From Eledone cirrhosa (taxonomy: Eukaryota): a stretch of DNA of 64,000 nucleotides. Location: assembly GCA_964016885.1 (NCBI GenBank), contig OZ024746.1, forward strand, positions 37,386,001-37,450,000. The letters run 5' to 3'. The position numbers were made by a program, and so were the translations under genes. Positions within the stretch are counted from its first letter, which is position 1, and every line of letters begins with the position of its first letter. The notes beneath the pieces are model-generated. The model had not been told where the DNA came from. It saw only the letters and a program-made list of their open reading frames with translations, and did no database searches. Shown piece after piece: positions 3,286-47,237 of the stretch.

Positions 3286-3508
3286 ACGATATTAAACAAA
3301 TGGAAACTATATTTATAAAACCATATTTATTTCGTTATATATATTTCTGGGATATCATATTAAAAATATGTTATGAATATGGTTTTATAAATATAGTTTC
3401 CATTTGTTTAATATCGTAAACCTACTCCAGAAACTGTCGAGCGCTTTTATATCAGTTATAAAATATTTACTCGTTGTAACCCAACAATCTTAAATAAAAC
3501 TTTTGCAT
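3286..3508. mobile_element. Family A foldback element in (TA)n (short inverted arm plus long arm with tail)
   Basis: 3286-3340 is the reverse complement of about 3376-3418. The sequence matches 21873-22450 and 46776-47237. Flanked by (TA)n on both sides. Confidence 0.85.
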
Positions 3509-4020
3509 ATATATATATATATATATGTGTATGTGTGTGTGTGTGTATGTTTGTGTATACATATGAGTATATATGTATGTGTGTGTGTGTATGCATGCAT
3601 ATATATATATGTGTGTATGGGTATGTATGTGTGTGTGTGTATATATATATGTAGCATATGTATAGAGCTTTTTGTTTTTGTGTTTTTGCGTTTGTATGTT
3701 TGTATGTATTTACGTATGTATACACCCCCTTTTTATATGCGTGTGTGTATTTGTGTGTACATATTTGTGTGCATATATATCTGTGTGTATGTATGTATTT
3801 ATGTTCCTGTTCGTTTTTCTATGTAGACGCAACGTATTATTACGTATATGCGCGTGGTTGAGTCTGTGTATGTTTATGTTCTGAATATTTATTTTTATTT
3901 TTATTTATATATATATTTTTTTTTTCCCTATATTTCCTTTCTGCCCTTTTTTTCAGCCTCACTTTCATACTTCCTAAATTTTGTTTTCAAATCCATATTT
4001 AAATAAAACACTATGTTATG

Positions 4021-4079
4021 TATTGATTCTGACGACAGACATAACATCTGCCTTCAAGAAACCCCTGGTAAATGAAATA
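4021..4079 (+). ncRNA. Degenerate type I hammerhead ribozyme-like motif
   Basis: tattgATT-CTGACGA-cagac...atctg ccttcaa-GAAA-CC cct G-GTA-AAT gaaata. Stems I and III pair; stem II register is damaged. Confidence 0.5.
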
Positions 4080-4199
4080 ATTATCTCATGTTGTTTGTTA
4101 CATAACTAAATAAATATATATATGTATATAAGTATCAATATGGTAATGGTACCACAAAAAAAACAGGAAAATCTAAGCAGGAAGAATTGAACTGGAGGT

Positions 4200-4378
4200 G
4201 AAATTTATTTTGCCAGCAATGACAGCGAAGACAAACAAATTATTTGAACAGGGAATAATGAATCTAATTAGAAGTTGGGAGAGATACTGGAACGAAATAG
4301 CAAATATATCATTGCGTGAATAAATTGCTTTTGATTTAAAACTGTCTCATTTACAGACTCTTTGGCCAACACATTTTA
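4200..4378 (+). mobile_element. mariner 3' remnant
   Basis: Frameshifted LFEQGIMNLIRSWER/ILERNSKYIIA* resembles the mariner C-terminus (FFERGIMKLPERW...NGQYII). It is followed by a TIR-like ctttggccaac. Confidence 0.6.
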
Positions 4379-42720: not shown

Positions 42721-42949
42721 CTGTACCTATATTAGATTGATGCCAACCACATATTACACATTAGCACCAAGAAAATATTACGGTCGACACTAAATCGATG
42801 CTTGATTTTTTTCTGAGAATCATTGGAATAGATCAGTGTTCATACCCTGCGTTTCGAAGTGATCAGTCTAAATAAATTATTCTGAAAGACTTTTATGTAG
42901 GAGTTTATGCCATCAGTTCGACAGACATTCTAAAGGCACAGAAGAGTAA

Positions 42950-43300
42950 ACGGATAAACGTCCCCGAAATTCACAAAGACTTGAGGGCGCGTGTCAACCA
43001 ACTACTACAACGTGTAGGTCCTGTACGACTATTAGCCGGATCTATAATTAAAATGTAACCACGGCGCTCTTTTAAATATGGGCTACGACAATTTTTCCGT
43101 TGTTTTCTAGCGTCAGTGAATGAAGCTCTATAAGGCAGACGCACAAATGGTTTGAGGACAGGAATGTTCATCCTCAAGCAAGTCCTCATTAGTTTCAAGT
43201 TAAACCAGAGGAGAAAGGTGAAAGTAGAGAGAGGATTGCTTCGTCTAGAGTATTATATGAATGAAAGTGTTGAGACTGATGAGGCTGAATGGGGCTACAT
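42950..43300 (+). mobile_element. Tx1-like LINE 3' remnant
   Basis: RRTNGLRTGMFILKQVLISFKLNQRRKVKVERGLL resembles a Tx1-clade ORF2 C-terminus; weak. Confidence 0.4.
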
Positions 43301-46300
43301 CAGAAAACGTTGCTAAACAATTAGAATGGACGTATGCTTTCTGCTGTAAAACAAATCCTATATTTATTAGAGACTAAGACAAGAATATAAGCACCACACG
43401 TATATTTTGAAGAAATGATCAACAAACTTTAAAGTACTCCTGAACAGTAGATCGAATCATATTGTGAAAGATGACATATATCAGCATGTGCCATGAAATA
43501 AGATTGTATTTATATTGTGTGAAAAATATTAATTCTATAGTTATATAAAATACGAAATATAAATTGTACATATGTCAAAAAATATAATATCAGAAATTAA
43601 AATTGGGGATTGTCTCTTGAATTCTAATTAATTTACGGTCATTTGGGTAAAGTGCGTAGGAGAAAAACAATTAGTGTTTTGGTAAATGATTATAGGAAGT
43701 TTCATGAATTAACACTTATTCCTTGAATGTCTAGAAACGCTAGTAAATGGAGAAACAAATATTGAATTACACGATTATTTCTTTTATCAGATTTTAATTA
43801 ATTTATTAATTTTCATATAAATATTTATATAAGAAAGAGTAGAATTGTTATTAATATTTCTGAGTAATCTATTTATTTTGATTTTTTTATCTTTTGTTAA
43901 TAAGTAACATTCCAAATGTTTTTTCCTTGAAGACAAATTTTGATAACATCTTTTATAATTTACAGAACTTACACGAAATGTGTTTCTTTGCATAAAGATC
44001 CGCTGCATTCATATGCCTGTGTTATTATGTTGTTCACCATCTAACATTCGTTATTGATATTTGCTTGTTTAAATATATACGAGTTCTCATATGGGCCTGG
44101 AGCAAATTCACTTGCCTTACTCTATTAATTCAATACATATGGTTCTGAGAAGTAAGGAGACACGTCAATACCTTGTTTGTCGATGGCTCTGAGGTTTACT
44201 TCTCATTCTGTTGGTACTACATATGGTGATAATGTCAATAAAATAGTCAACAAATATTCTCTTACTGGAACATTGGTGTCTACGTATATCAGTTATTTAA
44301 TGAAATTCTCTGAACAATCTTCCCCCATATTATGACTTGACAGATTGTCATGCAATTATGACTCATATTCCAGGTTTTTTAAGAATGTACATAACTTTCA
44401 AACATTCTATATTTATTTCCACGATTTGATAGACAGATATAGACCCCTAGCTTCCCAAAATGGATTTAAATCTACATCGGTTCATATTTCTTACAATAAT
44501 AGTTTGGTAAAACATCATAAGTACAGTCTCTAGTTATGATCTACACAGACGAAAAATGCAATTAATATATACAAACAACTAACCAAGGCTACACGACTCC
44601 GGCTACACGAAGTTAAACATATTGGAGTTATTATCTTAAATATCGTTAGGCGAAGATTAGCGGTGGTGTTTATCACACACTGATAGAGATACTTCGTATT
44701 AACAACAATTTTGTAGTGTATTGGTGACGTAATAACCATGAAATATTAATGAAAATCAGTATATTTAAAAAAGAAAAAAAATGCAGCTAGTATAAGGGAA
44801 ACTGGTCATGCAATTCATCATGAGTGATACGTATGTAGAGCAAATATCGATCCAACATAAATTCAATTAATAACATAAATATTGCGTTTATTAAGCACAT
44901 GTGAAAAGTATTCTATGGAATGTGATAAGTGATTATTCTTCAAATCTAGAGTTATGTGTACGGGGTGATAACACCATTTTCTGACAGATTGTGGTAGCAC
45001 GATTTACAGAGCACACTAAGATAGCGACATTTTAGAAAGAAAAACGGTTGCAATGAAGTGCATTATAATGTCGATAATATATTTATGTAAAATATAGTGT
45101 GGTTGTGTCAGGTGAATGCGGCAACGTGCCGAGTTATAATCGTATATACCAACAGATAGTGTCATGGTCTGATCAATCGATTATTTTAACTGATACAAAA
45201 TTGAATAATTCCGGACGGTTGGCAATGTTGCACAAGGACGTTAATAAGTGTGGTATTATCGATAAAAACTAGTGCACGATTCTGATGTTATTTGATGTAA
45301 AATGTTCCCCCATAGATGCCACACAGCATGGTTTAAGTGGATAGAAACTTAGTTTAGATGATATTCTTATAAATTTAGATTCTTATGTAGCTTTCAATAC
45401 TTCCAGATTCTTGACTCCAAGCCGCTGTTCTGATCTCTTCGTTTTCAAGATTGGAACCTTTATATATAGAATCGATATATTTTCAATAGGTGGAAATGTT
45501 TACCTTCTATTCCAGTTGTTACATATTACTCATTCATATAACTATATCCTCTCCACATCACTTCCGTGGTACTTATGAATTGGACAAAATATGCTGAGGC
45601 TAGGGAATTAACTTTCCAAAAATAGTAGCCGGAATTTTAATAGCTACTCATGTAAGCACCGACGTACAATGCTGAAGAAACACGAGGTGGTTAAATGAAA
45701 TAGCCATAACAAATGGATGGTTGCTCAACGCGGAAGCTGGAATGCAAAGGTGATACATTTAGCATCCTCAACTCTCGGTAAACTGATTTACGGTTTAATA
45801 TGTGTGGTTTCTTCTGTCCTGGCGTCTAGTTGGGCAAGAACTCGGTGATGGTTAGCGATATGAACAGTATTATCGAGAAACAAACTTATTGTATTGGTGA
45901 TCATAACAAATACTTTCATATTATCTGTCATATATTACTTCCATGATATCATGCAAATTGGAACGTCTACCCATTTATGAAGGCCTACGTAAAAGAATGC
46001 ATTCACACCTCTTTCGGTAGCGGCCTTAAAATTAACTGTTATGGCACTCTAGCACATGTAAACAGTAAAGATGCACAGTGAGTGTTAAAATCAACTAAAC
46101 CATATATTAAACAATTATGGGTGACATGTAGCTAGAACAACATTACAATTAACCTATAAAGATTATCCCAGGGCCAATATTGCAAACATAATATAACTAA
46201 AAGTAGCTTACCAAGACAAGCGTTTATCTTCACATTCCAGGAATACGTATGTTCAGTACATTTACTAAAATTATACAAACTTGTATTCCACAGTGAATTC

Positions 46301-46775
46301 AATCCCTCGTGTAATAGGATGATATTTCTGCTTCAGTAGCAATAATCTACAGTACATCTAAAATTGAAGCACGGTAGAATATTTGTTTATGTAAGCCAAT
46401 TGTCACTCATTGACAACTGATACACAGGCATGACTTACATATTCTTCCTTCTCTACAATAATGTTGCATCGTAGTTAAAAGGCTTACCTGTATGTGTCTA
46501 TCATTAAACATCACTTTCAATTCAACTAAAAAAGCAAAATAATATATCAACTGAAAGAAAACTATCTTCAGTTTTAATTAATTATATGTTTTCATTCAAT
46601 GCGCTTACAATATATCTATGACTCACTCAAATATTGAAATGTACTATCCATACGAAGCGGAGTTGTGCACCATATTTTTTCGCCCTGGCTCATCTTAAAT
46701 TACCTCACAGCCTAGGCAACTTGAAGTAGTGTATTTATTTATTTATATATACATAAATATATATATATATATACA

Positions 46776-47237
46776 TGTAAAGTTATATTTAAAATTGTTG
46801 GGTTACAACTAGTAAATATTTATAACTGATATAAAAGCACTCGACAAATATTTGGAGTATATTTACAATATTAAATAAATGGAAAACTATATTTATAAAA
46901 CCATATTTATTTCATTATATATATTTCGGGGATATCATATTAACAATATGCTATGCCTTCATCAGACAAAATACAATATAAACAGTTTTATAGATAAATA
47001 TATTCGACATACCGTAATAAACATCGACTTCATTTGAAGAGGTTTACGCTAGCAGTAAACCTCTTCAAATGAAGTCGATGTTTATTACGGTATGTCGAAT
47101 ATATTTATCTATAAAACTGTTTATATTGTATTTTGTCTGATGAAGGCATAGCATATTGTTAATATGATATCCCCGAAATATATATAATGAAATAAATATG
47201 GTTTTATAAATATAGTTTTCCATTTATTTAACATTGT
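46776..47237. mobile_element. Family A foldback palindrome (centre about 47050), arms nearly identical
   Basis: 46865-47047 is the reverse complement of 47055-47237. Hammerhead cores at 46908-46973 (-) and 47129-47194 (+). Tail at 46776-46864. Confidence 0.93.
47129..47194 (+). ncRNA. Hammerhead motif, family A (mirror copy at 46908-46973 on minus)
   Basis: tattttgtCTGATGAaggcatagcatattgttaatatgatatccccGAAAtatATAtaatgaaata. Confidence 0.68.

What the first reader, a model, noticed from the sequence alone, without database searches (positions are those of the whole stretch)
3286..47237. Each family has a fixed body|tail breakpoint, and tails also occur alone between (TA)n tracts
Seen: all three family A short arms end at the same point (...ttaatatcgta) directly into (TA)n (3286, 22450, 47237). 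Long arms continue with an about 90-nt tail (aacctactcc...ttttgca), and an orphan tail starting exactly at that breakpoint lies at 21631-21720. The same holds for family B (short arm at 18522; orphan tail 31172-31272), family C (short arms end ...tctttata at 29140/29620; tail in the 20810 and 31092 copies), family E and the large PLE (tail 37584-37680 absent from the 41802 end). Established: Penelope pLTRs show a tail on only one copy. Inference: a sequence-specific cut or priming site, perhaps the element's own GIY-YIG cleaving an internal TA-like site, after which (TA)n is joined.
Basis: partly seen in the sequence, partly recalled or inferred. Interest (0 to 1): 0.72.

Follow-up and report, generated by a model that had tools for sequence, protein, structure and literature searches.

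The report
Twin start sites set Penelope tails
These repeats are the ends of Penelope-like jumping genes whose two-armed copies nearly always stop at a fixed inner point on one arm and a fixed outer point on the other, likely because copying starts at both points just ahead of a small predicted RNA hairpin, while the lone 'tails' are rare and likely ordinary broken copies.

Summary
The fixed breakpoint is real: in 1.05 Mb of unselected genome, 78 of 93 arm ends fall at two points, inner (39) and outer (39). The families are 3' ends of (TA)n-targeting Penelope-like elements: A, B, F Hydra-type, C Neptune/Nematis-type, E a tRNA-headed non-coding unit. The tail is the next tandem unit's 5' UTR. 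One-sided tails are published, and two internal RT start sites explain them in vitro (PMC11167929). Added here: 24 of 25 classifiable two-armed insertions pair one inner with one outer end; in Hydra-type families both ends lie about 7 nt before a covarying bulged hairpin (core in 22 of 66 end classes, background 2.1%). Orphan tails do not support a cut at the break: 7 loci against 2,058 family A tail matches start there, 21 start mid-tail. Best reading: both target strands prime on the RNA, one at each hairpin-positioned start; no internal cut, and no evidence that (TA)n is added. This scan already reported the hairpin on other DNA of this genome. RNA versus DNA readout is untested.

The parts
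3287..3372 (-). Family A inverted short arm, ending at the inner point into (TA)n
3373..3506 (+). Family A long arm: body to 3416, 90-nt tail 3417-3506, then (TA)n
   Evidence: parent L112-L115
3424..3442 (+). Inner bulged hairpin of family A (this copy has a mismatch in the basal pair)
21631..21719 (+). Family A orphan tail between (TA)n tracts; 1 of 7 such loci genome-wide
21874..22449 (.). Family A two-armed insertion: tail-bearing arm on -, short arm on + ending at 22449
46774..47236 (.). Family A two-armed insertion: tail-bearing arm on - (body ends 46866), short arm on + ending at 47236
18521..18674 (.). Family B two-armed insertion: short arm on -, long arm on + with 89-nt tail from about 18600
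   Evidence: parent in L177
31173..31271 (-). Family B orphan tail, starting 5-9 nt before the inner point
56310..56508 (.). Family B insertion with tail-bearing arm on +
56752..56802 (-). Family B partial tail (starts about +43), not joined to (TA)n at its 5' end
20703..20869 (.). Family C two-armed insertion, 63-nt tail on + arm; short arm ends early in (TC)n
   Evidence: parent L288-L315, L318
29089..29140 (+). Family C short arm ending at the inner point
29621..29740 (-). Family C short arm ending at the inner point; inverted partner of the 30994-31155 arm
30994..31155 (+). Family C tail-bearing arm
20887..21094 (.). Family E two-armed insertion (tail arm on -, about 41-nt tail)
   Evidence: tRNA-headed units in L102, L049
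22538..22763 (.). Family E two-armed insertion (tail arm on +)
37577..41800 (-). Family F, 5'-truncated Hydra-type element: tail-bearing arm on -, inverted tail-less arm 40920-41800 with internal deletion
39757..40701 (-). F reading frame: RT thumb, CxCx5C linker, start of GIY-YIG; 56% identical to the intact family A protein over the aligned part
37731..37790 (-). Predicted minimal type I hammerhead of F (cores and stem I read by eye; about 55 nt before the inner point)
   Evidence: not detected by Rfam in relatives
37650..37676 (-). Inner bulged hairpin of family F
31944..32000 (+).
16878..16901 (-). Hairpin variant with a double (compensatory) change in the lower stem, following the end used by the 16388 copy

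Best explanation
The body|tail point and the tail end are likely two start sites for reverse transcription on the element's RNA, and each insertion likely uses both, one on each nicked strand of a (TA)n target. Shown: the tail is the 5' UTR of the next unit in a tandem parent; copies end at either point; two-armed copies pair one of each; in Hydra-type families each point lies about 7 nt before a bulged hairpin (RYUC, variable stem-loop, 2-nt bulge, GARY). Inferred: a protein molecule binds each hairpin, the 3'-TA of a nicked target pairs with the 2-6 nt of UA/AU just upstream and primes; the two antisense cDNAs are joined at self-complementary sequence and copied, giving (TA)n - inverted body - body+tail - (TA)n with no cut at the break. 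Orphan tails are likely outer-start cDNAs truncated early (or collapsed palindromes) and joined to (TA)n through any TA-like microhomology. Families C and E would do the same with their own duplicated signals.
For: Bimodal ends: 78 of 93. Pairing: of 30 head-to-head pairs in the unselected sample 24 inner+outer, 1 inner+inner, 0 outer+outer, 5 unclassed (24 of 25, one-sided p about 8e-7 against 50%, my arithmetic). In loci selected on one end: 13 inner, 1 outer, 1 ambiguous partner among 30 tail-selected loci; 17 outer, 1 probable outer, 0 inner among 30 inner-selected loci; the rest had no partner end within 1.5 kb; 5 insertions are in both sets. Parents show tail then ORF start 40-55 nt past the outer point (A, B, F). 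The hairpin was predicted in my note from A, B, F-inner and then found at F-outer, G-outer and both H sites. Blind scan without asking for pairing: core in the majority of run-on copies in 22 of 66 end classes versus 632 of 30,000 random windows; both variable pairs Watson-Crick in 20 of 22 versus 10%; median offset 7 nt. Loop length 5-61 nt with stems kept. The same hairpin is visible in published coral and sea-cucumber Hydra consensi (supplement passages). In vitro precedent: PAc cuts and extends both strands and starts at two RNA sites that bound the tail (PMC11167929). Terminal stutters at a C outer end (L316) fit abortive initiation.
Against: No biochemistry. Sense versus antisense stability did not pick a strand (9 versus 11 of 20), so RNA readout rests on covariation and on analogy. 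Isolated hairpins are weak (0 to -7 kcal/mol for most; 1 of 23 does not fold) and RNAalifold on a MAFFT alignment found no consensus. The published mechanism is for Poseidon with a 30-40 nt tail and an AC-rich loop, not Hydra. 44 of 66 end classes lack the core (many are other repeats; not sorted). C and E lack the Hydra hairpin; their duplicated motifs were read by eye from few copies. Tail-less arms are not consistently the longer arm, so the one-RNA leader-follower version has no separate support. Related families are not independent lineages.
Confidence: 0.66

Rival explanations
1. One reading: one cDNA starts at the tail end, folds back, and the element's GIY-YIG nicks the new DNA at the inner point (reading the motif as a DNA site at fixed distance), after which that end is joined to (TA)n; orphans are the other cut product.
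For: Craig et al. attribute tails to EN-mediated resolution. Frangieh et al. cite that the D. virilis EN needed the tail sequence to cut plasmids. It also predicts inner+outer pairs. Strand test inconclusive.
Against: Orphans not enriched at the break (7 versus 21 loci); 0 of 7 have the body across the tract; motif also follows the outer end; compensatory pairs and 5-61 nt spacing fit a folded strand, not a duplex site; the tail-less arm is often the longer one, which a fold-back from the tail end cannot give; about as many lone inner ends as lone outer ends.
Confidence: 0.15
2. The two points are 3' ends of two RNA species (termination or processing just before each hairpin), and the RT primes on RNA ends as LINEs do.
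For: A hairpin could direct processing; RNA-seq ends fall on these sites in Anolis.
Against: Two RNA pools chosen freely would give about half like-with-like pairs; 1 of 25 seen. The predicted hammerhead cut lies about 55 nt upstream of the inner point in A and F (by eye). PAc starts internally on longer RNA.
Confidence: 0.1
3. Ends are set only by short complementarity between (TA)n primers and UA-rich patches; the hairpin does something else (translation, RNP assembly).
For: Each end has 2-6 nt of TA match; the outer hairpin is in the 5' UTR close to the ATG; E ends vary between TA patches.
Against: Longer TA runs nearby are not used; offsets cluster at 6-9 nt in 16 of 22 classes.
Confidence: 0.09

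Closest known systems
Hydra clade of C-terminal EN+ Penelope-like elements (Craig et al. 2021, PMC8557442; includes Hydra-1_Obim)
   Same: RWK/RWR, DKT, CxCx5C linker, no CCHH, single ORF, (TA)n targets, tandem and inverted pLTRs with a one-sided tail.
   Different: Tails of 78-98 nt rather than 30-40; family A unit about 3.7 kb; the paired hairpin and the one-inner-one-outer rule are not in the sections I read (3, 6, 11, 15).
PAc / Poseidon from Anolis (Frangieh et al. 2024, PMC11167929)
   Same: Two fixed RT start sites bound the tail; both strands cut and extended; AT-rich targets; tail overlaps the start of the next unit.
   Different: [quoted passage not shown]
Adineta vaga Penelope elements (Arkhipova et al. 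2013, PMC3846280)
   Same: Head-to-head inverted pLTRs, palindromes at the inverted junction, optional 31-bp tail (passages).
   Different: Explained there by self-priming on an antisense template; no start-site signal.
Neptune/Nematis-type PLEs (family C) and animal non-LTR retrozymes (family E)
   Same: C: GLKF, DKG, CX4CxxC linker, CCHH, upstream frame. E: short, tandem, non-coding unit with PLE-like ends.
   Different: C has a 63-nt tail with its own duplicated motif; E carries a tRNA-derived head; the retrozyme preprint has no occurrence of 'tRNA' or 'tail'.

Membership tests
Hydra-clade PLE (families A, B, F, H) | Single ORF, RT then C-terminal GIY-YIG | tested here: met
   Open frames of 741 aa (A, L321) and 705 aa (H, L323) with RT motifs and a VY..YVG-type EN core by alignment; Pfam gave 0 hits for both
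Hydra-clade PLE (families A, B, F, H) | RWK motif, no GxKF/Y | tested here: met
   RWR in A, B, F; RWK in H
Hydra-clade PLE (families A, B, F, H) | DKG changed to DKT | tested here: met
   A, B, H; not seen for F, whose read stretch stops short
Hydra-clade PLE (families A, B, F, H) | CxCx5C linker; CCHH absent; CxxC and CxH around E and N | tested here: met
   A and H complete, F linker and GIY-YIG start; B's C-terminal half not read
Hydra-clade PLE (families A, B, F, H) | Hammerhead in the pLTR | tested here: inconclusive
   Cores and stem I seen by eye in A, F, H; Rfam found none in 7 loci; B's core is atypical
Hydra-clade PLE (families A, B, F, H) | (TA)n insertion | tested here: met
   73 of 78 inner/outer ends followed by TA-rich runs (includes family C)
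Hydra-clade PLE (families A, B, F, H) | Generally under 3 kb (typical, not strict) | tested here: not met
   Family A unit 3.71-3.74 kb owing to a long 3' UTR
Hydra-clade PLE (families A, B, F, H) | Groups with Hydra in an RT tree | not tested
   Only visual comparison with published proteins in the supplement
Neptune/Nematis-type PLE (family C) | GxKF, DKG, CX2-5CxxC linker, CCHH | tested here: met
   L318 768-aa frame; RVT_1 E=1.3e-6 and GIY-YIG E=2e-4, both just under the curated cut-offs
Neptune/Nematis-type PLE (family C) | Neptune versus Nematis by tree | not tested
PLE tail as two RT start sites (PAc mechanism) | Two discrete genomic ends bounding a stretch of the next unit | tested here: met
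PLE tail as two RT start sites (PAc mechanism) | Internal initiation shown biochemically | not testable with these tools
   needs purified protein

The most novel reading that the evidence does not exclude
Hydra-type Penelope elements carry a duplicated, clade-wide RNA hairpin that works as a ruler for RT initiation, and every insertion is an obligate twin-primed event in which two RT/EN molecules on the two hairpins each take one target strand; other PLE clades and tRNA-headed parasites reach the same two-start geometry with unrelated duplicated signals.
Probability: 0.5. Interest if true: 0.7.

Novelty: new variant of a known kind. Interest (0 to 1): 0.45.

Why it matters
The fixed one-sided tail is textbook for Penelope-like elements, and its two-start origin is published for one vertebrate element. 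What would matter is the cis-signal and the coupling: a 16-70 nt hairpin that sets where a telomerase-related RT begins, and a near-strict one-inner-one-outer rule, turn the open question of how PLEs make inverted, tailed insertions into simple mutagenesis experiments, and intact open frames exist in this genome to test it. For annotators it fixes unit boundaries. The orphan tails add little.

Tried and rejected
Orphans as cut products: rejected for A. For B, 544 matches genome-wide, 100 rows listed; by my hand count of 98 distinct loci about 24 start at -8..+3, about 25 at +6..+16, about 49 further in (about 19 expected per 12 nt if even); the pattern misses TA runs followed by T, including perfectly in-register starts at the break, so B is only partly tested and has no denominator. 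In 1.93 Mb of held loci, minus loci selected on each family, 8 of 78 tails had (TA)6 upstream; 1 was internal sequence, 3 were this window's, and the 4 others start at about +39, +12, +9, +20. Empty-site search for de novo (TA)n: 50 insertions, 4 candidates, none a clean empty site; inconclusive (one search timed out). Strand test by energy inconclusive; the Fisher tests in that call were partly circular and are replaced. In one search, 32 of 66 classes had at least one paired hit; I kept 23, dropping 8 minority hits and 1 reverse-strand self-match. MAFFT/RNAalifold could not align the variable loops. Metagenome scan: 342 pattern hits, 0 relatives. No RNA holder listed; no reads laid. Pfam missed Hydra proteins; Rfam missed the hammerheads. 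One search's alignment part was spoiled by a (TA)n run in the reference and is not used. A coordinate table of TA runs, hammerhead distances and E ends was not computed; those statements are read by eye. No fold, complex or tree was run.
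Full report
1. Observation. The window is G000:C6:37386001-37450000 in a 3.0-Gb genome. Exact patterns count 2,389 family A body-to-(TA)n ends, 811 junctions of one tail subtype and 2,058 tail anchors genome-wide; the patterns differ in stringency, so only the rough 1:1 of short ends to tails is meaningful. 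Ends are not random.

2. What the families are. Junction matches 3.7 kb apart led to tandem parents of A (L112-L115): pLTR, tail, ORF, long 3' UTR, pLTR, tail, (TA)n. The tail is therefore the 5' UTR of the next unit; the ATG lies about 50 nt beyond the outer point. Parents were also found for B (L177), F (L277-L287), H and C. A, B, F and H proteins carry the Hydra marks given by Craig et al. (section 11 read): RWK/RWR, DKT, CxCx5C, no CCHH. C has GLKF, DKG, a CX4CxxC linker, CCHH and an upstream frame, so it is Neptune/Nematis-type. E has no ORF; complete units in L102 and L049 begin with a tRNA-like head (ARAGORN 3 calls in 2 of 6 loci; Rfam tRNA 41 and 34 bits).

3. What is already known. 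Craig et al. (abstract, sections 3, 6, 11, 15) describe inverted 5'-truncated copies and a 30-40 bp tail at one end, ascribed to EN resolution, and (TA)n targeting by Hydra. Arkhipova et al. 2013 (passages) describe the optional tail and palindromic junctions. Frangieh et al. 2024 (parts 1-2 of 4; supplement search without hits) show in vitro that PAc cuts and extends both strands and starts RT at two internal RNA sites whose interval is the tail. The fixed body|tail point is thus a known trait with a published mechanism.

4. Orphan tails. The exact A orphan junction occurs once in the genome, here. A looser pattern gives 12 matches at 7 loci, against 2,058 tail anchors (0.3%). The same pattern aimed at a TA-like patch in mid-tail gives 42 matches at 21 loci (this anchor has no denominator of its own). 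In 0 of the 7 does the family's body lie across the tract. The unselected sample has 0 TA-flanked orphans; its 7 tail-only arms start at -5, +4, +19, +45, +61, +63, +72. For B, starts are spread along the tail, with about a quarter near the break (hand count), but that pattern misses in-register starts at the break. Several B rows keep a stub of the inverted arm, a continuum towards the orphan. A third window orphan (31944-32000, family H) starts mid-tail. Orphans read as truncations joined by TA microhomology, not as cut products; firm for A, partial for B.

5. What sets the two points. In A, the sequence after the outer point in tandem parents repeats the start of the tail: both are followed by a four-pair stem with a two-base 3' bulge and a variable upper stem-loop, A-U at one site and G-C at the other. 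I recorded this as a prediction and then found it at the F and G outer points and both H points. A blind scan clustered all termini abutting (TA)n in the held loci (94 classes of 3 or more; 66 with run-on copies). Asking only for the core letters, 22 of 66 classes have it in most run-on copies versus 2.1% of random windows; both variable pairs are Watson-Crick in 20 of 22 versus 10%; offsets are 3-12 nt, median 7. One class, present in this window at 16878-16901, changes both sides of the second pair. Published Hydra-1_Amil, Hydra-1_Ajap (two copies before the ATG) and Hydra-2_Ajap show the same hairpin in supplement passages; Hydra-1_Obim and Hydra-1_Crog show only imperfect versions (by eye). 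Against: folding energies are small and do not choose a strand. C and E lack this hairpin but each repeats a short motif of its own after both points (by eye).

6. Coupling. Among 30 head-to-head arm pairs in the unselected sample, 24 are inner+outer, 1 inner+inner, 0 outer+outer, 5 unclassed. Loci selected on one end agree (counts in Best explanation), with 1 outer+outer case (L113). Free choice would give about half like pairs. Junctions are often at natural palindromes, and either arm may be the longer.

7. Mechanism. Shown: items 1, 2, 4-6 as sequence facts. Inferred, by analogy with PAc: each hairpin holds an RT/EN molecule; each nicked (TA)n strand primes a few bases upstream; the two cDNAs join at self-complementary sequence and are copied. 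This needs no cut at the break and no added (TA)n, though the origin of the tracts is unsettled.

8. Novelty. Six paper searches and passages of two further papers showed no description of the paired hairpin or the pairing rule; the library lacks most subscription papers and all figures. The scan's earlier notes report the hairpin and twin starts on other windows of this genome; I had the reading before that look-up and tested it here, but those notes are not independent support. A search of notes for orphan tails gave 0. Verdict: known tail, new variant detail; interest 0.45.

Noticed in passing
L102:590-1021; L049:1871-1942; window 20887-21094 and 22538-22763: Family E is a short tandem non-coding unit with a tRNA-derived head and PLE-type inverted, tailed, (TA)n-flanked ends: a SINE-like parasite that probably uses PLE machinery. 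Some copies end about 10 nt earlier, near a possible hammerhead cut.
   Followed up: partly
L318:2363-5274; L328:2118-5254: Family C parent has an upstream 400-aa frame overlapping the RT-EN frame at the same place in several copies, suggesting a programmed frameshift.
   Followed up: partly
window 1915-2244 (-): RT fragment close to family H; the H-type ORF start gave 10,236 first-look candidates and several open frames of 712-719 aa.
   Followed up: partly
window 41717-41800: The tail-less end of F carries an extra 40-nt inverted duplication just before (TA)n.
   Followed up: no
L316 (C outer end); L233 (A orphan): Threefold stutter of the terminal 13-20 nt, in L233 separated by short (TA)n, as from repeated abortive priming.
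   Followed up: no
window 21720-21873; L007; L074/L075: Tail-to-tail A copies facing each other across one (TA)n tract; different families also stack in the same tract (20613-21231, 31156-31338).
   Followed up: no
window 16388-17092: Another tandem-plus-inverted family whose run-on copy carries the doubly changed hairpin.
   Followed up: partly
window 55493-55569 (-): A further tail-like end with an RYUC/GARY hairpin next to the 55429-55492 (TA)n tract.
   Followed up: no
window 20575-20612 and 21515-21552: Family with one shared end at (TA)n and no tail or parent found in the held loci.
   Followed up: partly
window 19114-19990: Mariner-like element with about 100-bp terminal inverted repeats and a decayed transposase fragment (recalled likeness, not searched).
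   Followed up: no
window 2898-2972, 18726-18912, 20354-20536, 25381-25762, 38915-39033, 53724-53935, 59652-59816: A frequent dispersed repeat of about 180-200 bp, SINE-like, in tandem at 25383-25762 and inverted at 59652-59816.
   Followed up: no
window 29263-29487, 54442-54648: Other fold-back elements; the first is flanked by (GA)n/(TC)n.
   Followed up: no
L123:7050-7400 (-): Family G has both hairpins followed by a short decayed Hydra-like frame; likely non-autonomous.
   Followed up: partly
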